Origin: Naegleria gruberi
Lineage: Eukaryota
DNA: 64,000 nucleotides
Direction: 5' to 3' (one strand)
NCBI GenBank assembly: GCA_000004985.1
Contig: GG738865.1
Shown here in pieces: positions 17,306 to 53,824 of this stretch (within the stretch, counting starts at the first letter, position 1; each line of letters begins with the position of its first letter). The notes beneath the pieces were generated by a model. That model was given only the letters and a program-made list of their open reading frames with translations, ran no database searches and was not told where the DNA came from. Made by a program: the position numbers and the translations under genes.

Positions 17306-20300
17306 ATGAGTAAAAACATATGGTTGCCGCCACTTTCGCTATCATCTCTGCAGAGAAATGATGGGAAGAACATCATGTTTGACACTCAGAAAGTAATCAA
17401 GCCGACCACCTGGTTGTATATAATGATGATACTGCTGATATTGTTAATGAATAGTGGAGGAGTTGTGAGATGTGGAAATGTTGTGGAAGTGGATGCTGAG
17501 GAAGTGAGGCAGTTGGATTTATATTTGAAAAAATCAAAACCTGATTTGGAAAATTCTCAGCTAGCTTTATTGGCATTTAAGGAGACGAGTCAAATGCTTA
17601 TACTCACCAAGACATTGTCATCCTTGTCCATCACACCAAGAACAATATTTTACTCTGCAGGGTTTATCGGAAATACTATTGTTCAATTGAATGCAAGTGA
17701 AATCAAATTCACCTCCTTGGCTAATGTATTTAACAATTCAACAAGACCATACAAAGTTGTTGATAGGCTTACATCATTATGCTCTTCTACTCTTTCTCAA
17801 TTATATCAGAACAACACCTTTATTCCAAATTATTATATTTGTTTTTTCAAAACAACACTCACATCAGAGAATAGAGTTTTCTTCTCAACAACAAGTGAAG
17901 GATTCAGATGTTTAAAACTAAATTCGGATGGGGATGTAATAACCAAGGATGTTTCTAAGGGATTTATTGAAGATTTTGCTACCTCATTATGTGTTATAAC
18001 CATAATATTTATAGCCCTTCTGTGGGTACAAGGATCATTTAAAAGGAGAATTATTGATACAAAGAGATATCCCTTTACCAATTATTACTTTGGAAACGAT
18101 ACTGATTGGAACTCTTCAACTTTTTCGGATCTTTCAGTAACTCTTAGACCAATATTTCCATTCTTTAAACATTTTTCCAATCAGTTTGACAAGCTTTATA
18201 AACTGATATTCAGATCAATTCAAAACAAAGTGGACCAGGAACATATTAGGAAGTATAAGAAATTTGGCTCTTCAACACTGCTGAAATACCAATTATTCTT
18301 CGACTTTTTCCTCTTTATAGTTATTAGTTGCTTATCAATGGTGCAGTTATTTGTTCCTTCTGTACTATATTTCCCAAATTTTATTCAAATACCTATTAAT
18401 TTTGACCTTGGGAATGACGAAACCTTCACAAGTTATTGGATAGGAGGGGCTGATTTTGTACCTATCAGTTTGGGTTTTTGGTTAATATCCCTCACTTTGA
18501 TGATATTGGGAATAATTTTGTTAATAGTTACTTCTAGTTCAAAAGAAAAGATGATGTATTGGAGCACAAACTCTTTGCCAGACACCAACATTTTGGTTTT
18601 CACTGATGCAATCTTCAAAATTATTTTCATAGTCTTGATTAATGTGATAATCATTTTACTACCGTTCTGGACATTTACCATTAAGGGAGTTCTTATGGTG
18701 GTTATTACAATAGCATCTATTTTCTATGGGAGTCAACAAATTTTAATTCCAACAGAGAAGGTTATTCACGCTATTCATGATGGAAATTATAAGATGGTTG
18801 TTGCCTTCTTGATGTTTGCATATTTTAAGGAACTTCTAGTGATCATACCATTTTTTATTCAGATATTCATGGTGGCCGAAACTATATTTGGGCTAGTTTG
18901 GAGCTTGATTCTTTCCTTTGTTGCAAACAACAGCAAGCTTTCCTTGATTGGTATTTTTGGTATTGTAATTAATTCTGCAACAAGTTTACTTCAAGACTTA
19001 CTACAGCCATCCAGAGTTACCAGGAAAAAGATTGTGGAAAGGTCAGATACATTCGTTTTTCCCTCTCTAACAAAGACCAGCACACAATTCATCCTTGATA
19101 ATGTCGCTGCAAAATATGGTGGCATTATTAATACCTACTCTAAACTGGTAGAAAGTAATGAGATGGTGGATTATACATACAAGGATATTCTCTCATTAAA
19201 TGACAACTTGGAAGAACTTAAGGACATTACAAGAAAAAGAAGTCAGTCTGTTGGAAAATCTGAAAACGGTGAAGCTAAGCTAGCAGCAACAACTATTGAA
19301 AAAATTCACAACCCTGTTAACATCAAATTCGAAAAAAATGAAGACAAAAACGAAGAGGAGCTAAAAACAAGATATACGGAGATCAATGATAGGCCAAAGT
19401 ACATGCATGTTCTCTTCAAGAAAGAAATTGCCTTACTCGTTAGAGGCATCTTCCTTTCAACGCAAGAGAAGAAAAATGAAAAATTGAGAGTAATCTTTAA
19501 GAGAGGAGAGAGGCTTTATACTCCATTGTTGAATACAGACATCAGAAGAATCCATCACAATTTAGTGGGTAGAGTCAAGATAGCAACAGGAAATCTGAGT
19601 AATTATTTAGTAGTAATTTTGATTGCAATGATTATTTTCTTGTCTTTTACTTATTCTGGTGCTGAAAGTGATGGTATGGACATTATGTCAAATATGGCTA
19701 TTGTTATTTCAATCTTTATTCCACAACTTTTTGGAAGATTGGATGAAGGACAAGTTGATGAACTATTCGAAAGAAGAATTGAGGAAACTATCCTTTTAAC
19801 CAAGAGAGATCTTGCAAAGAAACTTGACTTACCAGAGAAGGATCTCAATTTTTGCATTTTCAATTTTCAAAACGATTCAGATATTAGTAACTTTTTAGAG
19901 CACAACACCCCAGCAGTGTCTGAAACTATTGGAAGAAAAATGTAAGTATATTTTAACGAATTGTTTTACTTGAATCAAATGAAAGATTGGAACATTGGGA
20001 AAGTGCTTCAACAAATGGATTTATTACAGCTCAAAAATTCAAGCCACTCATGCTTATTGTATGGGATGAAACCCTTAAAATCAATGCAAAGAAGGGCACT
20101 GCTTCCGCTACAAATGACTATCTCAAGACTCATAGCCAATTCTTGACATCATTTTCAAACATAATTTATTGTATTAGTAATTTTGAGGCTGACTCCTTTG
20201 TGAGTGCTTACGAATTCATTCACGCTGTGGAGCTTCTCAAAAAATCAATCACAAGAAAGGAAGAAGATCAATGCTCAGATATGGATATAACATTTGCATT

Positions 20301-20601
20301 TCTATTCTTTTGCTATTTGAGAGGAAGAAGTGCTGAAGTAGGAATGGTGAATTGTAATTCTTTAGAAGTTAGTTTTGCAGAAGAAGAGTATAACCATTTC
20401 TTTTCCACTTTCTATACTTGGATAGCTGTTAACGATACCAAGAGAGAAAAGCTAAAGGAAGCAAAACAATTTATTGAGTTGGTATTCTCTGTGTATAGCT
20501 CTGAGCAGCGTCTATCATTGGAACATTTCTTGAATAGCTATAGATCGGTCAGAAGTGCAATGTCCAACACAAGTAGATCGATTGAAATCGAAGAGTTTTG
20601 A
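17306..20601 (+). CDS. Large polytopic membrane protein (signal peptide, ~230-aa luminal/extracellular domain, >=8 TM helices, ~300-aa coiled-coil-containing C-terminal region). Probable extra 3' exon: join(17306..19941,20004..20601)
   Basis: 879-aa ORF 17306..19945 ends ..GRKM immediately before a GTAAGT donor at 19942. ORF 19987..20601 is open upstream to 19957 with no ATG, and an in-phase AG acceptor sits at 20003 (alternative 19985). No recognisable domain. Confidence 0.5.
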
Positions 20602-28476: not shown

Positions 28477-31400
28477 ATGTCCTCCCTATTCAATCGTTTC
28501 AAAAAGAATAACAGCAATGCAGAGAATAAATTTGAACAACAACGTAACGCCAATCGTAAAACACTACAACCTCAGGATTTGACCTCGACCCAAAGTGAAA
28601 TCAGTGCTCATGACAAGTCGGGTTCACTCTCAATTCCATCAAGTAATACTGCCAGTAGTGGTTCTCTAGCCTATTATGAGGAAGGAGCATCAGTGAATGC
28701 CATGACTCAACTCTCAAACAAAAACAGTAAGAAGGGAGATAACAACAAGGAAAAGATGCCACCACCAGAGGAAATTGTTGCTCAATTTGAAAAGTTGTTG
28801 AAATATCAAGGTATTACACCAACTGAAAAACGATACAAATTGATGATTATGAAACCTTTGGAAGAAAAGTGGAAATTGGTTAAAATTATGCAAAATACAA
28901 AGAAGGAAGCTGATAAATTGCATACCATCAAGGACACTCCTGAATATATTGTACATCGTTTGAAAGATGAACCAACACTTGGTTCAGTTACTGAATTGAT
29001 CAGTCTCTTAAAGGGAGCTAAATCAGAGGATTGGATTCGTAAATTCTTGGATTTACAAGGTTTGGAGTGTTTATTTCAAATACTGGTAGAAAGTTGTGAT
29101 CAACAAATTAGAGAACAGTATGTTTTTGTTAACATTTTCAATAATTTATTGAATGTAACATTATTCAATTGATTATAATCCTTTTTTGGACATTTTTGTA
29201 ACTTTTTCAATATTTGTAATGTCCTCCAATGATTTTTAACACAGAGGTGGTAATATTCACGAAGAATTTTCTGATGATGAAGCACAACCTGAGGAAGAAG
29301 AAAATGAAGAGGAAGAAGATGGACTCGAAGATGAGGAAAAGAAGGAAGAAACTGGTTCCGAACAAGTGGAAACCAAGTCTTTGGATCCAAAGAGTAAACC
29401 ACCTCCACCTATGCTTCCACCAAGAATTGAAACTAAATCAAAGCGTGAAGATCCATACGATGCTCTTCAAGCTGAATGTGTCAGAGCACTTCGTGCATTG
29501 ATGAATACCACTCTTGGTCTTAATGCCTTTTTGCAAAGTAAGGACAAGTCAGTGTTAACTGTCACCAAGATTTTGGATTCCAGAAATATCAAAACCAAAA
29601 CTCAAGTTTTCTTCTTGTTGGCAACTATTTGTAGATTCGAACAAGGTTTTTGGATTGCTATCGATGCTATGAACAAGTACAAGTTGAATAGAAAGGAACG
29701 TGCTAGATTCCAAACCATTGTTCGTTTATTGAAGAAGAAGGTTGAAGTGAGTGATGAAACTATTTTACTCAAAACTTCAATTATTGTTTTCATTAACTCT
29801 TTAATTAATTCTCCACAAGATGCTTCATTGAAGAAACAATTGAGAAAGGAATTTGTTGATCTTAAAATGATTGAAATCAGTGAACAATTGAAAGCTTTGG
29901 ATCTTGACGATACTTTAACAATGCAACTTTCATTCTTCGAAGAGGAAGTTCAAGATATTGAAGATGCTGAAGAGGAGGAAGAAGAGCTAGATCTCGACGC
30001 ATTGGAAGATCCTATGGAAATTCTCAAACTTATTAGAGTTCAATTGGGTGGTTCTCAAGCTTTCGAATATTTCGTTAAAATCCTTCAATACTTTTTAATC
30101 ATTTCCGGTAAATCAAATGAAAAGGAAAAATCAAAGAATATGAATATTCTCTTGACAATGATCAAGAAGGCTGTTGCTTTCAAGGAAGATGGTGGAGTTG
30201 AAGAAGTCAGTGTTAAGGAATTGCAATTAGCTGATCGTGTTGAAACTCAACAACGTAAGATTACACAACTCGAAACTAGATTCTTGAAATTGGCAGAAAT
30301 GTTAAAGACTGGTAAAATTGATGATAAGGTTATTGAAAAATTCATTAGTTTGACATCTAAGGACACAAGAGAAAGCTTTAACAAATCAGTTGAAAGTATG
30401 GATCCTAGTGAGTTACAAGAAGAATTCCTCAAAGATGCCGAAGAATTACTTGTAAAGGTTAAGTCAAAAGGTGGATTTGATTTGGATACTTCAAATGCTC
30501 CAGAAGATTTAAAGAAACACTTGAAGAAACTCGAAACTGAGCTCAAATTTATGACTTATAAGGCCAAACAATTAGAGAAACAATTACAATCTGGAGGTGG
30601 AGGAAAAGGTGGAGGTGGTTCTGGTGGAGGATCAGGTGGAGGCGGCTCAGTAGGTTCAGGAGAAGCAAGCTCTGGTGATTCAGGATCTGAGGTGCCCTTC
30701 AGGTGAAGGTGGTTCAACAGGAGGTGATTCATCTGTTCCATCCATACCAACAATTCCAGTTGCAACTGAAGGCATTCCATTGCCACCTGGTATGGGAGTT
30801 CCTCCACCACCTGGTATGGGAATTCCACCACCACCTGGTATGGGCGGTATTCCACCACCACCAGGATCAGGTATTCCATTGCCACCTGGCGTTCCACCAC
30901 CACCTGGCATGGGAGGAATTCCAATGCCACCTGGAGTTCCTATGCCACCTGGTATGGGTATTCCTGGTATTCCAGGTATTCCACAAGGATACGTTCCACC
31001 AAAATTACCAACCTATAAGAGTACTGCTGTAATGAAGGGTGTCTTTTGGAGTAAGGTACCAGTTCAACAATTGAAGGACTCTATCTGGATTAAGAAGGAT
31101 ATTGTCACTGGATTGGAAGGTATTGAATTGGAAACAACAGAATTGGAAAAGCTCTTTGCTAAGAAGGAATCTATTGTATTGGAAACTAACACAAAGAAAC
31201 CAGAAAAGGTTACCCTCATTGATCCAAAGAAGGCCCAAAACTCTGCCATCGTTCTCGGTTCTATGAGATTGGACCACGATGATATTAAATTATCCATGTT
31301 GAGAATGGATGAAGGTGTTTTGGCTCCAGAAAATATCAAGGCCCTCAAGGACATGGTTCCTACAGCCGATGAAAGACAAGCTCTCAGTGATTATAATGGT

Positions 31401-32567
31401 GATTTCAACATGTTGGGAACAACTGAACAATTCTTGAGTAAGGTCATGGATATTCCAAGACTCGAAGAAAGATTAGAAAGTTGGTTGATCAAACTCAAAT
31501 TCCCTGCCAGTGTTTCCTCAATTGAACCAGATATTGAAACTATCATTTCTTGTTGCAAACAATTACAACAAGGTAAAAAATTCCACAAAGTTTTGCAAGT
31601 CATTTTGGCTATTGGTAACTTTATCAATGGTAACAAGAAGGCAGTTCACGGTTTCCAAATCAATGCCCTTCCAAAGTTGAAGGACACAAAGGCAACAGGT
31701 GCTAAGATTAATATGCTCGATTATATTGTTCAATTTTTGGAGAAGAATCATCCAGAAACTCTCAATTTTGGTGATGACCTTTCTGCTCTTAAGGGTGCTG
31801 AAAGAGTTTCAATTCAAGGTATCACTTCTGAATTGAATGAAATGAAGAATGGTGTCAATTTTGTTGGTAGAGAAATTGAAAAGTCAGATTTAGACACAGA
31901 ATTCGACAAGTTTAGAGAAGTCATGGTTGACTTTTTAGATTTTGCCTCTGAAAAGGTTGAAACATTCGAAAATCAAATTAAGGAAATGCAAACTCAAATT
32001 GAAAAGATTCAAATCTTGTTTGCTGAAGATTCTAAGAAATTCACACCAGAATCTTTCTTTGCTGGTATCAATACTTTCATTACCGACTTTAAATTGGCTC
32101 ATGCTGAAATTTTGAGAAAGAGAGATATCGAAAAGAAGAAACTCGAAAAGGAACAAAAAGACAAGGAAAGACAACAAAAGGTTATGGACTCGAGAAAGAA
32201 GAAAGAAGAAACCAAAAAGATCGAAAGAGAATCAATCTCTGCCCAAACACCAAACGAAGAGGATGGACAACCAGAAGAAAAGGGTGTCCTCGATAAGACA
32301 CTCGATTCACTCATGGATGGTTCTGGTTTCAGAAAAGGAGTTTCTGCCAACAAGAAGAAGAAGGCAGCTCAATTAAATGCAGTCAACCTTATCCAAGAAT
32401 TGGAAACCAAAAAGCTAGGCTCTCCATCTAACGAAGAAAATTCAACAACAACCCCTCAATCACTGGCCTCACCAAAAGCTCAAGATGAACAAATAACAAC
32501 ACCAAGAGGACTTGCAAAAGCTCCAAGTAAGAGAAGACTTAAGAATGGTGGCGATGATGAATTGTAA
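28477..32567 (+). CDS. Diaphanous-related formin (GBD/FH3 - coiled coil - Gly/Ser linker - FH1 polyproline - FH2 - C-terminal basic tail). Intron 29118..29244; unresolved frame change near 30690-30706
   Basis: FH1: IPLPPGMGVPPPPGMGIPPPPGMGGIPPPPGSGIPLPPGVPPPPGMGGIPMPPG. FH2 begins KGVFWSKVPVQQLKDSIWIKKD. ORFs 28477..29172 and 29366..30706 are joined by a 127-nt GTATGT..ACAG intron. The ORF runs in frame 2 up to 30706 and continues in frame 0 from 30654. Confidence 0.8.
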
Positions 32568-45304: not shown

Positions 45305-47976
45305 ATGTCTCTACAATTTGGCAGCACCTTGCTGTTTGCTGTTCTGATCATCTTTCTCACCTACTACAATCAATCTCGTTTGCCATCAAATTTACCAGTG
45401 CCAAACAGTATTGGTGCACCTGTTGATTATTTATTTAGAGAGGATCGAGCATTGAAAACTCTCGGCATTCTCTCCACTACTATCGGACCAAAAGTTGTTG
45501 GTACTCTGCAAGAGAAACAAGCTTTTGAATTTGTTAGAGATGAATTGAGTACGATTGTACATAGTGAATGGAAAATGAAATTGGAAAATTGTGATGAGAT
45601 GAATGTGAATGTTAATGGTCAGGATGAAGAGTTTGGATTAAAGAGGTTTATTAGAAAGGAGGGAAATATTAATAGTATGAAAATCAAGAGATGTCAACTT
45701 GTTGGGAATAATCATAAGATTACCCTTGATCAACAATTTATTTCTGGTATGTGTATTTATTTGGTTTGTGGTCAATTATAATTAATTGATCAGGTGATGG
45801 ATACATTGATATTTTGAAGAGAAAACTGTTTACTTCCTACCAAAATTTGACTAATTTAATTGTTAGAATTGATCCAAATCAAGATAGATCGGATAATCAT
45901 GGTTTATTGGTGTCAAGCCACTTTGACAGTGGTGTGTCTTCACCTGGATTCTATGATGATGGTATTCCTGTTGTTTGTATGATTGAATCATTTAGAAATA
46001 TTGTGAAAATGATTAGAGATGGAAAGTTAGAATTGAAAAGAAGTGTTATTTTCTTGTTTAATGGTGCTGAAGAAACTGGACTATTGGGAGCTGAATCATT
46101 CATGTATCATCCATATTCTAGGGATGTAAAATACTTTTTAAATTTAGAGGCTGCAGGATCTGGTGGAAAAGAGGTTGCTTTCCAAATAGCTACAGAATTC
46201 TTGGCTAGACATTTCGCCAAGTCAACAGTGAGGGCTAGTGGAAATGTCATAGCTCAAGATATTTTCCAATCAAATATTATTCCATCAGCAACTGATTATC
46301 ATGTATATTCTTCATTTGGAATGCAAGGAATTGATGTTTCATTCTACAAGAATGGTTATGTTTATCATACATCAAAGGATTCTTCATCTTCTTATGAAAA
46401 GGGATCTATTCAGCATATGGGTGATAATGTCCAATCATTTGTAACCCACTTCTCAAATATCACTGAAAATGACTCTGATCCAAAGACAAACTTTGTCTAT
46501 TTTGATCTTTTTGGATTCAATATGAATGTTTTTGACATCAATACTCTCAGACTGATTAACGTTTCAGTCATTGTAATATCTATTACTCTGTTAATTATTC
46601 CATTGATCAAAGGAGGTGCCGTAGCCTTGTACCATAGAGTGTTGGCCTTATTTTTAATATTCCTCTTTTTACTATTTGCTATTGGAATTAATATTACTTT
46701 AACAATTGGATTAATGAGATTGGGATACGATATGCTCTATTTTGCCTATCACCCAATGTTCTCTTTGGTTCTTTATGGATCAGTAGTAGTGACAACCTTC
46801 ACTCTTGGTTTTTGGACAACCAACAAGTTTATCATTGCCTTATCCACTGAAATCATGGCAGAATCAATTCTAATTCTCTACACTTGTATTTTGACACTTT
46901 TCACAATTTTCAACATTGCTTCTGGATATCTTTTCTTGGCTGTCACAATATTCTTATTATTGGGCACTTATTTCAACAAGGTTTACCTTGATTTTTCCTT
47001 GATAGGATTGGCATTTTTGAGTCCTATTTTGAACCAAGTTATTGACATGTTTATTCCAATTACTGGAAGACTTGGAAAGGCCGTTCAAGTTGATTATATT
47101 GCCCTTATGTTGTGTAGCATTGCTGTATTCTTAATATTGACAACATTGTTACCAGTTCTTGTTAGACAAATCTCTGGAAAAACTGTTTTACTATTAATTT
47201 TGGGAACTATCATCACCTATGCATATCTTATTTTGGGTAATAATGGCAAAGCATTTACCGAGGCACATCCAAAGAGAACTTCTATACAACATACCTTCTT
47301 AATGGCAAGTAATAATTTGAATGATTGGGAGCAGCTCTCTCAATATATTATGATTGCAGGAGCAGATTCATCTAAGGAGGAGGAAATAACTGATGTGTTG
47401 GGCAAGAGATTTAATTTTGAAAGAAGTCATGACACTTTAGAACCACAAGTTGTCAGAAGTGTAATTAATCCAAGAACTCACAAGAAGCCATATCTTATTA
47501 CCGAAACTACAGATAGTTTACCACGTTATATTACCCCTAAAATTTTCATTACAAACAAGGTCCATGAAAAAGGAAGAATTGAGTTTAGTATCCTCTTCCA
47601 TGAAAAGATTTATCATAGTGGAATATTCCTCTATTCAGATCATGAGATTGTAGAGTCATCATTCGATACCAATACATCATTCGGAAGAGTTGTTCAAACA
47701 AATACTGATTCTCAATATGAGTTTGAATATAACTTTTGGGCATTATTTGGATACAATAGAGATAGCTCTTTAATGAACCAAAATCAAAAATCTTTCAAGT
47801 TTTGGATTGAGTTCAAGCAAAATCCACAAAAAGATTTCAAATTGCGAGTTACACTCAAGAATACCTTCCTCGCAAATACATATTCTCTTGCAGAGTTGGA
47901 GACAGAGTTAGAGTCACTCCCTTGGTCTGAACATATTTCTACAACCCATTCTGTCATGGATTTCCAAATTAATTAG
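45305..47976 (+). CDS. ERMP1: ER metallopeptidase 1 (ERMP1/FXNA)-like M28-family peptidase with polytopic C-terminal membrane domain; join(45305..45746,45794..47976)
   Basis: M28 zinc-binding contexts HGLLVSSHFDSGVSSPGFYDDG, FLFNGAEETGLLGAESF, NLEAAGSGGKEV, YHTSKDS. Nine or more TM helices follow. 47-nt GTATGT..TCAG intron. Confidence 0.85.
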
Positions 47977-48164
47977 ACACAGAATAACGTGAATAAACTC
48001 ACTAAATGGGTTGAAGAACAATTATCTAAAAGCGAATTCTAATGGCACCACTCTAATTTTACAACGTGTTTTATTTGTATTAATAACTGACAAAACGTGC
48101 TGTGGCAAAGTAGTTTTTTAAACAACCTAACACAAATTTACGTTAAAGAAGAATTACAAAAGAA

Positions 48165-49424
48165 ATGGACAACAAGAACCATCTTGAATTCCTGGAAAAG
48201 CACCAATTGCTAGACAAAATCCGTAATGAAATGGGCTCAGAAAAAGCCTTCACTGCATTTCTGGAGAGTGTACGGAAATCGTATGGTCTTGGGAAGGAAC
48301 TATTCGATGAATTCATCTCCACTCCTGATACCAAGTATGCTCATGCAAGATTTATTCTCTGCAAACATTTATTCAATCCCCATATTAAGGCCACTAATTA
48401 TATTGGGTACTTGAGAGAGAATAATCTTGTTAGTAATATGCGAGATGTATTGGATAGAATTGAAAGATCTTTTAAAGGACCCTCACTAGCAAATGAAAAG
48501 AAATTTGTTCTCTTCCTTGATGGAGACAATCTTTCCAACTTGTTAACATTCAAGAAATTGAAAGAATTGTCATTTAAAGTACAGTTTCATGTCTGTCTCT
48601 TCCTCACTAAGGACATTATCAATGACTCCATGATGGGATATGAACATGAAGAGTGGCTTTCCATCATTTACTCTGAAACAAGGGAGAGGGATGCTGCTGA
48701 TAATTGTATAACCTTTTTGATGGGCAGAGTAGATTCTAAACTTGACAGGATGGATTGTGACTTTATTCTAGTCACTCGTGATCACTTTTACAGAGAAATG
48801 ATATCACAATTCGAAAAGTATTTCGATCGTCAATGCCATCATTCCAACACCATGGATGGATTGGAAGAGTTGCTCGAGAACAATGAAACATGTTTGAGAA
48901 AAAGACCAAGATCTCTCTCCTCATCAACAGTGACAGAAGCAATTCCTCTCCATTCTGTTGAGATTATGAAACTAGATCAGAAAGACCTTTCTCCCGAGTT
49001 TCTGATAGACTTCTTTAAAAAATTCTGGTTAGGAAGTGGTAAATCACAAGCATCCTTACGATTAATGTGTTTGGAGAAGTTGGTTGCATCGAGATTGTTT
49101 GTTTTGCAGAAGAATAATACCCGCTTCGATATGATACTTTTAGATTACTACTCCTCATTTATAGACTGTAGTGCCATTTGCAATTTCGCAATAAGGGTGA
49201 ACCAAAACGTAGCGCCAATCCATATTTTCTCCATTTCCACCAGATTTGGAGAAAATGGAGATTCTCCACTAATTCAACAACACACTAACTACTACCATCA
49301 AAATATCATAGAGATTGATACTGAGAAATCACAGTTACAATCTCAAAAACAATTCTCTCTCTTTGACACTGCATTTATTCTTGAGATGCATGATGGAATC
49401 AATGTTTATGTCACATCTAATTGA
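48165..49424 (+). CDS. NYN (PIN-like nuclease) domain protein, hypothetical
   Basis: KKFVLFLDGDNLSN, then ETRERDAADNCITFLMGRV and DRMDCDFILVTRDHFYREMI, matching NYN-domain acidic motifs. Single 419-aa exon. Confidence 0.5.
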   Translation: MDNKNHLEFLEKHQLLDKIRNEMGSEKAFTAFLESVRKSYGLGKELFDEFISTPDTKYAHARFILCKHLFNPHIKATNYIGYLRENNLVSNMRDVLDRIERSFKGPSLANEKKFVLFLDGDNLSNLLTFKKLKELSFKVQFHVCLFLTKDIINDSMMGYEHEEWLSIIYSETRERDAADNCITFLMGRVDSKLDRMDCDFILVTRDHFYREMISQFEKYFDRQCHHSNTMDGLEELLENNETCLRKRPRSLSSSTVTEAIPLHSVEIMKLDQKDLSPEFLIDFFKKFWLGSGKSQASLRLMCLEKLVASRLFVLQKNNTRFDMILLDYYSSFIDCSAICNFAIRVNQNVAPIHIFSISTRFGENGDSPLIQQHTNYYHQNIIEIDTEKSQLQSQKQFSLFDTAFILEMHDGINVYVTSN

Positions 49425-49960
49425 TGAGAGATTGAAAGTTGTTAATAAAGTGTTTTTCTTTATAAAAACTGTAACTGTTTTTGATACTGAACATTTCAAA
49501 ATGTTTAAAACACTCATTTTTGAATAAAGTCCAAAAAATATTTGATCATGATTTTCATTATCCATTACAATAAATCTGATTGTGAAATTTCTAATTTCAC
49601 ATTGGCAACTATCTTTTTAGATCTTAAAAATTCGCACAGTTTTCTAGAGTTGACTTTATTTGCAGTAGTTTTTCCAAAAAGTCGAAAATTTAAATGGCCG
49701 CAATTCCGTTGGTCAATTGGATAAATTGGGTAAAAAACAAGTCATTCAAAATCTTTGCAAATTATTCATCCATTCTCATAGATTCTATCAAGCTTGCTCA
49801 GAAAATTGTCGTAAAAAAAGTGTCAACAAATACCGCCGGGGCTGTTTTGTGCAAAAACCACAACACATCATTTCCTAATTGTTTCCAATTTTGATATTAG
49901 ACTTTAAAACCTACCACCATCAATAACATCAAAGAACCATCATATAAAGAAAACACTATA

Positions 49961-52488
49961 TTGTTAATCAGATTGCTTATCAATATGTTGGTCAATTCGT
50001 CGTCTCCATCTTCGGTTCATCCACACAGTAAACTTTTAAATTCATCATCCTCTTCGAGTAATAATAATAACATGACGATTTCTAACAAATCTGCAGTGGC
50101 GAGTCAACCTGTATTCATTAATACTACTTCAACTTCATATTCTGCCTCCTATACGAATCTAAAACAACAACAATCGGCACCAATTTCAATGGCTAACACC
50201 ACAAATAATAATAGCAAACATATTACGAGACAATCCTCCACTCTAACTTCTTATTCATCCTCCAATAATATCAACAACAACAGCAACAATACAAAGATTA
50301 TCAATTCAAAGCCCGTTCTGCAGATCAACTCTACAAATTTTGGCGACAAACTCGCACATAATGTTATTCATCAAACAGAAACATTTAAAACAATACCCAA
50401 CAACACTAATTATTCCCAAATCAATCCAAAAACTCTTTATAGCACCGATTACAATATTCAGTCAACCAGTAACAGTCCACCACTGGCTAACAAGGCAGGC
50501 ACCTCCAAACACAGTAATATTCAAAGCTGTGTGCACCATCAACAACCAAACACTATTTCAAATACAGTGACAAACTCCACCGCACAAAATATCAATAATA
50601 TTAATAGACAAGTCAGGAGTACAAGTAATGGAAGTGATGTCCTTCCATTGAATCTTGGTGTTAACACAATGAGAACAAATAGCAGCAATGGTCAACATAT
50701 TAGGGGGCTTGCAATAAGTACTTCCTCACTAACAACAAACTCCTCAACCAAACTACCTCCTCTTTCCCTTCATCGATTGGAAAAATCTACCTCTGAGTCA
50801 TCATTGGAAAATTTACATAATCACCACCATCAACATGGTGCTGAACCAGCAACACCAAGAGTTGTTAATCTTGACAAGTATTTTAAATTTGCTCAACTAA
50901 TTATGGACGAGGAGGCATGTGAGGTTTTTCTTGAATTTTTGAGAAGGAAACGAAATGAAGAAAACTTGGAGTTTATTCTTCAAGTTTCTGCTCTTAAAAA
51001 GATTCCAACACTAAGTCATGGATATGCTATTGAAATTTTGCAAAGAATTCGTTCTGATTTTCTAACTAACGGCGCCAGTACGAACTGAATGTTAGCAAAC
51101 ATGTCAAATCACTCTCGATTGACAGGATTGATCGCTGTTTACAACAATCAATGCCATCAAGTCATTCTTCACTCAATTTTGCCAGTTCTCCTGTTGATTC
51201 TCTTATCCAATCCTCTTCGCCATCTACTGTTTCGACTCTAACTTATTCAACAACAGCCAATTCTGTGGACAACTCATACGATTCTCCAAGTTTAATATCC
51301 TCTTCCTTTTCCTCATTATCGTTGCTTCACAACTCATCACCAAGAGATCATTCAGAGTGTAGCTCCACATTCACAATGAGTGGAGAAATAATTCCACAAC
51401 AACCTATAACAACGAGTACCATATTGAAAGAGATCGAGTTGGAGGTTAGACTCCAGTTACAGAATGAGTCTTTCAAGGAATTTAAAGCAAGTGACGAGTT
51501 TGAACACTTTTTATTGACAAAAGTGATTGAACAGAGTCAGAATAATAACCCTGTGAATGATCAATCCCCACACAACTCTCCTCATCAATCTGAGACTGTA
51601 AGCTCTTCTAGATCAGACAAGTCTAACTCTTCTATTGGTTCTCCACAGTCCAGTAATTTCTTCTCCAAGATTTTCAAGAAGAAATCTACAACAAGCACTG
51701 CTGTTCAAGAACCAAAATCTGATGAATCAATTACAGATGATGAAACGTCAGTTGGAAGTGGTGAATCAGAATATATTTACAATCCTCAGAATCCTAATGA
51801 TATCACCTTTGTGGAAAATCTTCAGATCAGAAAGTGGAGTAATCAACAAGTGATCAACTTTTTCAAATTCAAGTTGGATCTACCAGAATATACTGATGCT
51901 TTGAAAAAGAATGAAATCAAAGGAATTGATCTTAGCTTATTGAAAAAGGAAGATACTCCAGATCAAGCAGCAGATAAGATTGATACTTCTGATCTTCAAA
52001 AGAAGGTCGATGCACTCTACAAGAAGATAAAGATGGTTAAACTTGGACACAAGAAAAAGCTTCAAAGAGAAGTCAATGAAGCAATAATTGCCTATCAGAA
52101 AAAGCAACAAAAATCCAACAAGATTTCATCTCTTGAACGTCCAAGAAAAGTTTCTGATTCTATTCTTCCAAAATCACAAATCTCCACATCAATGGACGCT
52201 GACTTGACTACGATCATTATCAAGTTGTGGATTCTGCCAATGGATCAGAAACGAGTTTTCACTGTCAAACGTTGTATCAAGCTTGATCGTTTAAAAACAA
52301 TCATTCTCAAGGAAGTTAGTGATATTGTAGAGAAAAAGTTTCCATCTGAAAATCCAACACTTTTAATGAATAATCGAGTCATTAAAACCTCAAAAGGTGA
52401 CTCTCTCACTTCTAATGAAAAACTTTACCAATACCTATGCTCAGAATCTACCAGCAGTCAATTTGTTACTCTAAAGATTGAATTTTAA
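49961..52488 (+). CDS. RGS-domain + SAM-domain protein. Two ORFs (49961..51088, 51151..52488), presumably one gene with an unresolved junction
   Basis: RGS N-terminal half FAQLIMDEEACEVFLEFLRRKRNEENLEFILQVSALKKIPTLSHGYAIEILQRIRSDFL ends at TGA 51086. An RGS C-terminal-like segment (EVRLQLQNESFKEFKASDEFEHFLL) and a SAM-like segment (WSNQQVINFFKFKLDLPEYTDALKKNEIKGIDLSLL) lie in the downstream ORF, which is in a different frame. Confidence 0.55.
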
Positions 52489-52576
52489 ATCATAATAAAT
52501 TAAACAATTTATTTTGAATTTTCCAAATTTAGTGCCAACAATTTAATTAAAATTTTCTAAATCTAATGAATTTCTC

Positions 52577-53824
52577 TTAATTCCCCTTGATGAAATTCCG
52601 AGTGGTAGATTTGGCAGCAATTATTGTCTTTGTTTTTAGGGTGAAATTATCTGGTCGATAGGCAAGGAACGCATGTCTAAGATCTATGAGATTTTCACTA
52701 GGAGAAATAATAGGTTGACCTTCAAGTTTGATATCTGGAAATGTGAATTGACATTCCACATTATATGACTCATCATTATCTTCTTCAGATGGTTTTGATT
52801 TTAATTTTAGGATGCCAGACACAATAATAGATGAAGTGTTGAGCGGAATATTATTCACTTTGCATTCTCCCTTATCTATGGATGTTTGAGATATTTCCTG
52901 ATTGTTTGAATCAAGGAATTTGAATGAAACATTCTTAAACCATGATGAAATTCTATTTCCATTCTTTTCTGATCTGAATTGGCAATCAAACGAAAGCTCT
53001 TCTTGTTGTTTTTGAATAGAGAGCAGATAAGATTTTGAGGCAACATAGGTCGGTATCTGATATCCTAATCCATTCATTAACCTCTCCATAAATTCATCTG
53101 TTTTCATATTGATTTTCACATCTGCATAAATATCCTTTGGTGTGGTTTGTAAATTTACAATTATTAATTTTCCCTTATGTCCGTAAGTGTTGAATTTACA
53201 CAATTGTGGCAAATCGCAAATTGGCAATACCTTCAAGCTAGTTCCAAGAACAATTGCCACATCTGCCAATTTCGAATGTTCCAAAGCCCTTTCGAACCAC
53301 TTCTGATCCAGTGGATCGTTAAAATTGACAATAGTATCAAACAATTCCTTTCCACACTTATTGCAAAATCTTCCAGTTGTATGCTCATGCACTTCCTTAT
53401 TATTTCTAACTGAATAATCTCTAACATATTCAATTTCACATTCTTTACAAATTTCAATATTTGTATTTCCATGAATTTCACTCATACAATCTCTTGAAAT
53501 TCCAGATTCCAAATGAAGTCCATCAACATTTTGTGAAGTGAGATATTTCAACTTTTTTTGTTTGTACAATTCTGATATTGCCATGTGACATTTTGTTGGA
53601 AACTTGATGAAAGGAACAGATTTGACTGGTTCCTTCCCTTGCTTCAACATGGTCCAAATTCCCTTCGGACCTCTATAATCAATTATACCACTCTCCGTAG
53701 AAATACCAGCCCCCGTATAAATAACCAAATGTTTAGAATCCTTCACATAGTCAATGACCCATTTGATCTTTTCTTCAATCTCCTCGGCAGAGTCAAAATA
53801 TTCAGTACAATCTTCTTGTTCCAT
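52577..53824 (-). CDS. NAD-dependent protein deacylase, sirtuin class IV (SIRT6/7-like) with C-terminal extension
   Basis: GAGISTESGIIDYRGPKGIWT..QNVDGLHLESG..LSEIHGN, Zn ribbon (CKECEIEY..CNKCG), GTSLKV..LIIVNLQTTP..DEFMERLMNGLG. Collinear with SIRT6 from memory. Confidence 0.85.
   Translation of the reverse strand: MEQEDCTEYFDSAEEIEEKIKWVIDYVKDSKHLVIYTGAGISTESGIIDYRGPKGIWTMLKQGKEPVKSVPFIKFPTKCHMAISELYKQKKLKYLTSQNVDGLHLESGISRDCMSEIHGNTNIEICKECEIEYVRDYSVRNNKEVHEHTTGRFCNKCGKELFDTIVNFNDPLDQKWFERALEHSKLADVAIVLGTSLKVLPICDLPQLCKFNTYGHKGKLIIVNLQTTPKDIYADVKINMKTDEFMERLMNGLGYQIPTYVASKSYLLSIQKQQEELSFDCQFRSEKNGNRISSWFKNVSFKFLDSNNQEISQTSIDKGECKVNNIPLNTSSIIVSGILKLKSKPSEEDNDESYNVECQFTFPDIKLEGQPIISPSENLIDLRHAFLAYRPDNFTLKTKTIIAAKSTTRNFIKGN

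What the first reader, a model, noticed from the sequence alone, without database searches (positions are those of the whole stretch)
51050..51155. RGS domain split between two reading frames with no canonical intron
The RGS N-terminal half ends at TGA 51086..51088. The RGS C-terminal-like segment and a SAM domain lie in the downstream ORF (frame 1, open from 51070). The only GT donor before the stop (51078) has no in-phase AG acceptor before 51151. The cause could be a 1-nt indel error, a non-canonical splice, or an RGS domain truly truncated with a separate downstream gene.
Basis: seen in the sequence. Interest (0 to 1): 0.5.

Follow-up and report, generated by a model that had tools for sequence, protein, structure and literature searches.

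The report
One-base frameshift splits Naegleria RGS gene
A single Naegleria gruberi gene for an RGS-SAM signalling protein is cut into two reading frames because this sequence lacks one T, most likely a draft-assembly error or else a very recent null mutation, so the finding is ordinary.

Summary
Frame A (ATG 49985) ends at TGA 51086-88 after the first half of an RGS domain. The second half, a SAM domain and a C-terminal beta-grasp domain lie in the frame that opens at 51070.

The window is the Naegleria gruberi NEG-M reference. It carries two adjacent "predicted protein" models here: NAEGRDRAFT_79571 (367 aa) and NAEGRDRAFT_67055 (370 aa).

A 2.9-kb metagenome contig (L004) is 97.8% identical over its whole length, and dS is 0.026 in the coding part. 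It encodes one continuous 829-aa protein. Its only non-triplet difference from the window is one extra T between 51077 and 51078 (GCC-ATG-TAC against GCCA-GTAC).

Orthologues in N. lovaniensis, N. fowleri, Willaertia magna and another metagenome contig are continuous. Three of the four were checked at the DNA level and are single exons. All four align without a gap across the site. The site lies two codons before the invariant Glu-Leu-Asn motif.

No usable intron, slippery site or downstream RNA structure exists. Both halves are under strong purifying selection (dN/dS about 0.06).

Verdict: one gene broken by a 1-nt deletion in this record (about 0.93). My split is about 55% sequencing or assembly error and about 38% genuine recent NEG-M lesion or allele. 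Reads or cDNA would decide. Interest is low.

The parts
49985..51088 (+). Frame-A ORF. It equals GenBank model EFC44968.1 / XP_002677712.1 (NAEGRDRAFT_79571, 367 aa): an Asn/Ser-rich N-terminal region plus the first half of the RGS domain, ending at TGA 51086-88.
   Evidence: The translation is identical to P0006.
50885..51076 (+). RGS domain, N-terminal half (Pfam RGS profile positions 1-62), including the NEENLEF motif.
   Evidence: residues 301-364 of ORF A. Aligned to human RGS6 and RGS2.
51077..51078 (+). Frameshift site. One T is missing between these two bases: the window reads GCCA-GTAC, the relative L004 reads GCC ATG TAC (Ala-Met-Tyr).
   Evidence: pairwise DNA alignment. P0007 reads FLTNGAMYELNVS.
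51067..51069 (+). TAA that bounds the downstream frame on its 5' side. The frame switch must therefore lie between 51070 and 51085.
51079..51150 (+). RGS domain continuation in frame B (YELNVSKHVKSLSIDRIDRCLQQS), with the invariant Glu-Leu-Asn motif that lines up with the E-x-N motif of mammalian RGS proteins. No GenBank gene model covers it.
   Evidence: (E367, L368 and N369 invariant in 5 sequences).
51151..51411 (+). Ser-rich low-complexity insertion inside the RGS domain. It varies in length among Naegleria-type sequences and is absent in Willaertia.
   Evidence: Removing it restores a full-length RGS match.
51412..51537 (+). RGS domain C-terminal helices (TSTILKEIELEVRLQLQNESFKEFKASDEFEHFLLTKVIEQS), the most conserved block of the family.
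   Evidence: profile covered through position 117.
51376..52488 (+). GenBank model EFC44969.1 / XP_002677713.1 (NAEGRDRAFT_67055, 370 aa). It starts at an internal Met inside the Ser-rich insertion of the RGS domain, which makes it an artefact of the frameshift.
   Evidence: The translation is identical.
51832..51954 (+). SAM domain (Pfam SAM_2 and SAM_1, partial profile coverage).
   Evidence: residues 255-295 of the frame-B protein.
52207..52485 (+). C-terminal conserved domain, predicted to have a beta-grasp (ubiquitin-like / PB1 / Ras-binding-like) fold. Pfam does not recognise it.
   Evidence: conserved IIKL...KRVFTVK block; the equivalent residues 589-679 of orthologue P0002 have pLDDT 85-90. 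Foldseek hits to SUMO, PB1 and RBD at E about 1e-3.

Best explanation
Positions 49985-52488 are one intronless gene of Naegleria gruberi. It encodes an ~835-residue cytoplasmic signalling protein with these parts, in order:
- a low-complexity N-terminus;
- an RGS domain carrying an ~80-residue Ser-rich loop insertion;
- a SAM domain;
- a coiled-coil-like segment;
- a C-terminal beta-grasp domain.

In this sequence record one T is missing between 51077 and 51078. The codon ATG (Met) reads A-G. The reading frame therefore shifts by -1 two codons before the invariant Glu-Leu-Asn motif of the RGS domain and hits TGA at 51086.

The annotators called two unrelated-looking 'predicted proteins' as a result. 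I take the missing base to be, most likely, a base-calling or assembly error of the draft reference, so the amoeba makes the full-length protein.

Shown here:
- the identity of the locus;
- the exact 1-nt difference;
- the continuity of every relative;
- purifying selection on both halves;
- the absence of intron or recoding signals.

Inferred:
- that the lesion is an artefact rather than a real NEG-M mutation;
- that the intact protein acts as a GTPase-activating protein for G-alpha subunits, as RGS domains with these contact motifs do (established knowledge of the RGS family), with SAM and beta-grasp modules for oligomerisation or partner binding.
For: 1. Locus identity. The translations of 49985-51085 and 51376-52485 are identical to the two adjacent N. 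gruberi models EFC44968.1 and EFC44969.1.

2. An intact near-identical relative. The same 90%-identity protein cluster holds P0007, a continuous 829-aa protein on ENA metagenome contig L004. L004 aligns to window 49718-52604 at 97.8%. Within the CDS it differs by 17 substituted codons, three in-frame indels (+3, +3, -21 nt) and exactly one 1-nt indel, the T at 51077/51078.

3. Continuous orthologues. Those of N. lovaniensis (854 aa), N. fowleri (854 aa), Willaertia magna (516 aa) and a second ENA contig (679 aa) align across the site with no gap. Gly363, Glu367, Leu368 and Asn369 are invariant. For the three whose DNA was fetched (not Willaertia), gene length equals 3 x (aa + 1), so they are single exons.

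4. RGS score. It rises from 24.1 bits (ORF A alone, profile 1-62) to 38.1 bits when joined. With the Ser-rich insert removed it reaches 51.8 bits over profile 1-117 of 117. Human RGS6 and RGS2 align straight through the junction.

5. Selection. There are 14 synonymous and 3 non-synonymous changes against L004, giving dN/dS about 0.06 and binomial P = 1.7e-7. The downstream half alone has 4 synonymous and 1 non-synonymous change, P = 0.008. There is no second lesion in either half. Any real inactivation would therefore be very young.

6. Lean towards artefact. There is a single reference assembly of this species, dating from 2010 (PMC9928731). From my own knowledge it is a draft Sanger shotgun. 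The missing base sits next to the only GC-rich palindrome of the region (GGCGCC, 51071-51076), a context prone to compression. This last point is suggestive only.
Against: Nothing available here separates an error in the record from a genuine NEG-M mutation.
- No reads, traces, ESTs or second N. gruberi assembly could be reached.
- My rough prior estimates for the two are of the same order.
- Naegleria has a very large RGS family: 79 RGS-domain proteins besides the 7TM-RGS class in N. fowleri (PMC9283941). Loss of one member could be tolerated.
- NEG-M is a long-cultured axenic laboratory strain (own knowledge) and is heterozygous (PMC9928731). A real null allele is therefore quite possible.
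- The origin of contig L004 (which sample, DNA or RNA) could not be traced.
Confidence: 0.55

Rival explanations
1. The deletion of the T is real in strain NEG-M, either fixed or on one haplotype that the assembly happened to pick. The gene would then be a very recent null allele or young pseudogene. Translation would stop at 51086 and give a 367-residue protein with only the first half of the RGS helical bundle. That protein lacks the Glu-x-Asn loop and therefore G-alpha GAP activity. The SAM and beta-grasp part would not be made, or only by inefficient internal initiation.
For: - The sequence as given carries the lesion, and both GenBank models were built on it.
- The ancestral state is clearly intact, so a derived 1-nt deletion is a simple event.
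- RGS paralogues are numerous in Naegleria (PMC9283941), which relaxes selection on any one copy.
- N. gruberi is heterozygous (PMC9928731).
- The lack of any further stop or frameshift in 2.5 kb, and dN/dS about 0.06, fit a very recent event as well as they fit an artefact.
Against: No independent NEG-M data support it. Both halves look fully constrained. A single missing base in a draft shotgun assembly is the classic artefact.
Confidence: 0.38
2. Gene fission in progress. The frameshift is real and both products are used: an N-terminal low-complexity protein with a half-RGS, and a separately initiated SAM and beta-grasp protein (for example from ATG 51151 or 51376).
For: Two models are annotated. 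The downstream frame has in-frame ATGs at 51151 and 51376.
Against: - The break falls inside a single compact helical domain, two codons before invariant contact residues.
- Half an RGS bundle is not a known functional unit (established knowledge of RGS structure).
- No relative has this arrangement.
- There is no sign of an intergenic region, since the frames overlap by 19 nt.
- The stretch 51070-51375 would be an untranslated leader under this reading, yet it stays open.
Confidence: 0.03
3. The frames are joined biologically, by a non-canonical or very short intron, programmed -1 ribosomal frameshifting, transcriptional slippage or RNA editing that inserts a base.
For: Only the bare fact that a -1 shift within 51070-51085 would restore the protein.
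Against: - Introns: the only GT/GC-AG or AT-AC 'intron' that keeps both FLTNGA and ELNVS is 5 nt long. GT 51078 first pairs in phase with an AG ending at 51256, and that splice would delete the invariant E-L-N and the following helix.
- Frameshifting: there is no X XXY YYZ heptamer and no homopolymer of 3 or more in the overlap.
- RNA structure: the downstream RNA is no more structured than shuffles (z = +0.58, 143 of 200 shuffles fold at least as well).
- Conservation: a recoding site should be conserved. The near-identical relative and all orthologues simply have an uninterrupted frame.
Confidence: 0.02

Closest known systems
Orthologous 'RGS domain-containing proteins' of other heteroloboseans: N. 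fowleri FDP41_010632 (P0004), N. lovaniensis C9374_009062 (P0003), Willaertia magna ABK040_012755 (P0005), plus ENA metagenome proteins P0002 and P0007
   Same: They share the order of conserved blocks: LPPL motif, RGS, ELEVRLQLQNESFKEFKASDEFEHF block, FFSKLFKRK motif, SAM, KMVKLGHKKKLQREVN block and C-terminal beta-grasp. Identity is 34-44% in the MAFFT alignment for the four distant sequences, and P0007 shares the 90%-identity cluster with the window's two models.
   Different: All of them are single uninterrupted ORFs (single exons where the DNA was fetched). Only the N. gruberi reference is frameshifted. The neighbouring genes differ between N. gruberi (M28 peptidase, Sir2) and N. fowleri / N. 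lovaniensis (EF-G-like GTPase, dymeclin).
Canonical RGS domains (Pfam PF00615; human RGS2, RGS6, RGS16, RGS18 structures)
   Same: The full 117-position profile is matched once the frames are joined. The EEN and E-x-N motifs are present. In mammalian RGS proteins these motifs contact the G-alpha switch regions (the role of these residues is from my own knowledge of the RGS4-Gi-alpha1 structure).
   Different: There is an ~80-residue Ser-rich insertion between the sixth and seventh helices. Trp is replaced by Ile in the F-W position (NEENLEFIL). The domain is combined with SAM and beta-grasp domains. GAP activity is untested.
Multidomain RGS and adaptor architectures with beta-grasp modules (RGS12/RGS14: RGS plus Ras-binding domains; Ste50-type: SAM plus RA domain)
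   Same: They combine an RGS or SAM domain with a ubiquitin-fold interaction domain. This resemblance is recalled from my own knowledge. Only the beta-grasp fold was tested here.
   Different: There is no sequence-level match to the RBD, RA or PB1 families in Pfam. No GoLoco motif was detected. Homology is not established.
Programmed -1 ribosomal frameshift sites
   Same: Two overlapping frames are related by a -1 shift.
   Different: There is no slippery heptamer, no stimulatory structure and no conservation of the overlap in relatives.

Membership tests
RGS domain (PF00615) | Sequence match to the whole RGS box above the curated threshold | tested here: met
   The joined frames with the insert removed give 51.8 bits, E = 1.3e-13, profile 1-117 of 117. 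Joined with the insert they give 38.1 bits. ORF A alone gives only 24.1 bits against a 23.9 cut-off, covering profile 1-62.
RGS domain (PF00615) | Conserved G-alpha-contact motifs (S/N-E-E-N in the helix 3-4 region; E-x-N in the helix 5-6 loop) | tested here: met
   NEENLEF aligns with SEENIEF / SSENLRF, and YELNVS aligns with KEINID / SAINLD of human RGS2 and RGS6. E367, L368 and N369 are invariant in the five heterolobosean sequences. In the window as written, the second motif is out of frame.
RGS domain (PF00615) | GTPase-accelerating activity on a G-alpha subunit | not testable with these tools
   This needs a biochemical assay.
SAM domain (PF07647 / PF00536) | Profile match above the gathering score | tested here: met
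   SAM_2 scores 27.4 bits (cut-off 20.5) and SAM_1 scores 25.4 bits (cut-off 23). Only profile positions 4-43 of 66 are covered.
Beta-grasp interaction domains (PB1 / RA-RBD / ubiquitin-like) | Beta-grasp fold plus the family-specific sequence signature | tested here: inconclusive
   The fold is supported on orthologue P0002: C-terminal pLDDT 85-90, and Foldseek hits to SUMO, PB1 and the PI3K RBD at E about 1e-3 with TM 0.6-0.7. There is no Pfam family match, so the subfamily is undetermined.
Spliceosomal intron | GT-AG (or GC-AG / AT-AC) boundaries of plausible length that restore the conserved protein | tested here: not met
   The only boundary pair that keeps both conserved flanks is 5 nt long. 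All longer in-phase pairs delete invariant residues. The three orthologue genes fetched are intronless. L004 is colinear through the site.
Programmed -1 ribosomal frameshift | Slippery heptamer X XXY YYZ in the overlap, a downstream stimulatory structure, and conservation of the shift | tested here: not met
   No heptamer or homopolymer is present. The fold z-score is +0.58. Relatives have one frame.
Long-standing pseudogene | Multiple disabling lesions and relaxed constraint (dN/dS near 1) | tested here: not met
   There is a single lesion and dN/dS is about 0.06, with both halves constrained.

The most novel reading that the evidence does not exclude
The T deletion is genuine in NEG-M, and the cell nevertheless uses both pieces: a half-RGS N-terminal protein and an independently initiated SAM and beta-grasp protein. 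This would be a very young gene fission caught in a laboratory strain. Alternatively, full-length protein could be restored by an unconventional recoding event without canonical signals.
Probability: 0.04. Interest if true: 0.45.

Novelty: already known. Interest (0 to 1): 0.08.

Why it matters
The value is practical rather than conceptual. Two GenBank/RefSeq entries (XP_002677712.1 and XP_002677713.1, 'predicted protein') should be merged into one ~835-aa RGS-SAM protein. Alternatively the locus should be flagged as frameshifted. As they stand, the N. gruberi RGS repertoire and orthology tables with N. fowleri miss this gene's RGS domain, which scores only marginally in the upstream model and is absent from the downstream one.

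If the deletion proves real in NEG-M, it is a natural knockout of one member of a very large RGS family in the standard laboratory strain. That would be a minor point for people who study Naegleria G-protein signalling.

Tried and rejected
Looking for independent N. gruberi data:
- Exact-product look-ups of both GenBank models and of the 445-aa ORF found nothing. The N. gruberi assembly and any Logan assemblies of it are not in that index.
- Two scans of JGI metagenome contigs found nothing. One used the junction as a DNA pattern with an optional base, the other used protein P0007.

Searches that gave nothing useful:
- A homology search with a junction-spanning query returned no hit. Members of a cluster are hidden behind their representative, P0001, which lacks that region. 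The decisive protein P0007 surfaced only through the cluster listing.
- Tracing the source of contig L004 (PRJEB11402, ERR1078381) in the paper library gave nothing.
- The N. gruberi genome paper (PubMed id 20211133) is not held, so statements about its sequencing method rest on my own knowledge.

Hypotheses tested and rejected:
- Intron: exhaustive enumeration of in-phase boundary pairs.
- Programmed frameshift: motif scan and RNA fold.

Results of limited use:
- The AlphaFold model of orthologue P0002 from a 4-sequence alignment was poor overall (pLDDT 49). I used only its C-terminal domain and did not use it to map RGS helices.
- I tested whether a second split gene in the window, the formin at about 30690, is also a 1-nt indel. 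The homology search was swamped by poly-proline words and did not return the N. gruberi protein.

Full report
**Observation**

- The frame that starts at ATG 49985 reads ...ILQRIRSDFLTNGASTN and stops at TGA 51086-88.
- The frame one base behind it has TAA at 51067-69. From 51070 it reads RRQYELNVSKHVKSLSIDRIDRCLQQS... without a stop to 52488.
- Pfam finds only the first half of an RGS domain in the upstream ORF (profile 1-62 of 117, 24.1 bits against a 23.9 cut-off). It finds a SAM domain in the downstream frame.
- GT 51078 is the only GT in the 19-nt overlap. Its first in-phase AG ends at 51256.

**Identity of the locus**

A protein search with the joined sequence returned a 370-aa 'predicted protein [Naegleria gruberi]' at 100% identity. 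It also returned continuous homologues annotated as RGS domain-containing proteins in N. lovaniensis (854 aa) and N. fowleri (854 aa), a 516-aa hypothetical protein of Willaertia magna, and a 679-aa protein from an ENA metagenome.

The window is AT-rich (about 34% GC) and densely packed with long ORFs, as expected for this amoeba.

The translations of 49985-51085 and 51376-52485 are letter-for-letter the two adjacent GenBank models:
- EFC44968.1 / XP_002677712.1 (NAEGRDRAFT_79571, 367 aa);
- EFC44969.1 / XP_002677713.1 (NAEGRDRAFT_67055, 370 aa).

The window is therefore the NEG-M reference assembly, and its annotators split the locus in two. The second model starts at an internal Met inside the Ser-rich insertion of the RGS domain. 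It leaves 51089-51375 unannotated.

**The decisive comparison**

The 90%-identity cluster that holds both GenBank models also holds P0007, an 829-aa protein from an ENA metagenome assembly. Its contig (L004, 2873 nt, ERZ929261 / ERR1078381) aligns to window 49718-52604 at 97.8% identity.

Base by base, the coding region differs as follows:
- 17 codons with a substitution;
- three in-frame indels in low-complexity stretches (+3, +3 and -21 nt);
- one single-base indel. L004 reads CGGCGCCATGTACGAA where the window reads CGGCGCCA-GTACGAA.

With that T the protein runs FLTNGA-M-YELNVSKHV....

All four more distant orthologues align across this point without a gap:

| Sequence | Residues at the site |
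|---|---|
| ENA protein P0002 | NGSNHELNVS |
| N. lovaniensis | SGAVSELNVG |
| N. fowleri | SGAVSELNVS |
| Willaertia magna | LGGAHELNLP |

Gly, Glu, Leu and Asn are invariant in these columns. For the three orthologues whose DNA could be fetched (all but Willaertia), the gene span is exactly 3 x (aa + 1). They are single exons. The ancestral and normal state is one uninterrupted ORF, and the window carries a derived 1-nt deletion.

**What the gene encodes**

Joining the frames raises the RGS score from 24.1 to 38.1 bits. Also removing the ~80-residue Ser-rich stretch gives 51.8 bits over the full profile, 1-117 of 117. The Willaertia orthologue lacks the insert and matches profile 2-117 directly.

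Human RGS6 and RGS2 align straight through the junction. FLAPGAPSAINLD and FIEKEAPKEINID both align with FLTNGASYELNVS. The shift therefore falls two codons before the E-x-N loop. From my knowledge of RGS4-Gi-alpha1 structural work, this loop carries the Asn that contacts the G-alpha switch regions.

Downstream the protein has:
- a strongly conserved helical block (ELEVRLQLQNESFKEFKASDEFEHF);
- a SAM domain;
- a conserved basic helix (KMVKLGHKKKLQREVN);
- a C-terminal domain. In an AlphaFold model of orthologue P0002 this is the only confidently predicted part (pLDDT 85-90). It has a beta-grasp fold resembling SUMO, PB1 and Ras-binding domains (Foldseek E about 1e-3, TM 0.6-0.7).

The inferred function is a G-alpha GTPase-activating scaffold. 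It is one of a very large Naegleria RGS family: 79 RGS-domain proteins besides the 7TM-RGS class in N. fowleri (PMC9283941).

**Alternatives tested**

- Intron. Every in-phase GT/GC-AG or AT-AC pair was enumerated. The only one that keeps both conserved flanks is 5 nt long. Longer ones, such as 51078-51256, delete the invariant E-L-N and the following helix.
- Programmed frameshifting or slippage. There is no X XXY YYZ heptamer and no homopolymer of three or more in the overlap. The downstream 141 nt fold no better than shuffles (z = +0.58).
- Old pseudogene. Against L004 there are 14 synonymous and 3 non-synonymous changes, giving dN/dS about 0.06 and binomial P = 1.7e-7. Both halves are individually constrained (upstream P = 1.2e-5, downstream P = 0.008). 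No second lesion exists. The 102 unannotated codons of the downstream frame are stop-free (P about 0.001).

**What remains open**

The open question is whether the missing T is an error of the record or a genuine, very recent lesion of strain NEG-M or of one of its haplotypes. I could reach no reads, traces, ESTs or second assembly. Only one N. gruberi assembly exists according to PMC9928731.

My order-of-magnitude priors for frameshift errors in a draft Sanger assembly and for real segregating frameshifts at this level of divergence are similar. These are inference, not computed results. The GC-rich palindrome GGCGCC immediately upstream of the site nudges me towards an artefact. The long laboratory history of NEG-M, the known heterozygosity and RGS redundancy nudge the other way.

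My estimates:

| Reading | Probability |
|---|---|
| Sequencing or assembly artefact | about 55% |
| Real recent null allele | about 38% |
| Functional gene fission | about 3% |
| Recoding or non-canonical splicing | about 2% |

The combined statement 'one gene interrupted by a single-base deletion' stands at about 0.93.

**Verdict**

The finding is real in the sequence but ordinary. It is a one-base frameshift in an otherwise normal, conserved, intronless RGS-SAM gene, and it produced two spurious gene models in the public annotation. Novelty: already known kind. Interest: low (0.08).

Noticed in passing
window 29366-32567 (+), junction about 30654-30706: A diaphanous-type formin also appears split between two frames. 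Drf_GBD and Drf_FH3 lie in ORF 29366-30706, and FH2 (E = 7.8e-91) lies in ORF 30675-32567. The frames overlap in a Gly/Ser-rich linker just before the poly-Pro FH1 (...SGDSGSEVPFR* against ...CPSGEGGSTGGDSSVPSIP). In-phase GT...AG pairs exist (30597 or 30609 to 30669) but have weak consensus and lie in coding-like sequence. A second single-base indel is possible.
   Followed up: partly
window 19942-20003 (+): ORFs 17306-19945 and 19987-20601 are linked by a textbook donor GTAAGT at 19942, with in-phase AG acceptors at 19985 or 20003 (a 44-62 nt intron). This shows what a genuine short intron looks like in this window, in contrast to the RGS junction.
   Followed up: partly
window 52207-52485 (+); P0002 residues 589-679: The conserved C-terminal domain of this protein family has no Pfam match. 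It is confidently predicted as a beta-grasp fold (SUMO / PB1 / Ras-binding-domain-like). Together with the SAM domain this recalls SAM plus RA adaptor architectures.
   Followed up: partly
window 52518-52555 versus L004 2787-2824; window 49718-49984 versus L004 1-267: Between the window and the metagenome relative, the 267 nt upstream of the start codon are identical. The ~40 nt of 3' flank just after the stop codon are heavily diverged: a cluster of substitutions plus two 3-nt indels. This may be a fast-evolving AT-rich 3' region shared with the convergent Sir2 gene, or a contig-end assembly artefact.
   Followed up: no
window 50522-50542, 50058, 50257: The in-frame length differences against the relative (-21, +3 and +3 nt) all lie in the Asn/Ser/Gln-rich N-terminal low-complexity region. 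This points to replication-slippage-type variation among N. gruberi strains.
   Followed up: no
window 45814-53824; L001 and L002: Gene neighbourhood is not conserved. In N. gruberi the RGS gene lies between an M28 peptidase, an unknown 419-aa ORF and a convergent Sir2-family gene. In N. fowleri and N. lovaniensis the orthologue lies between an EF-G-like GTPase and dymeclin.
   Followed up: no
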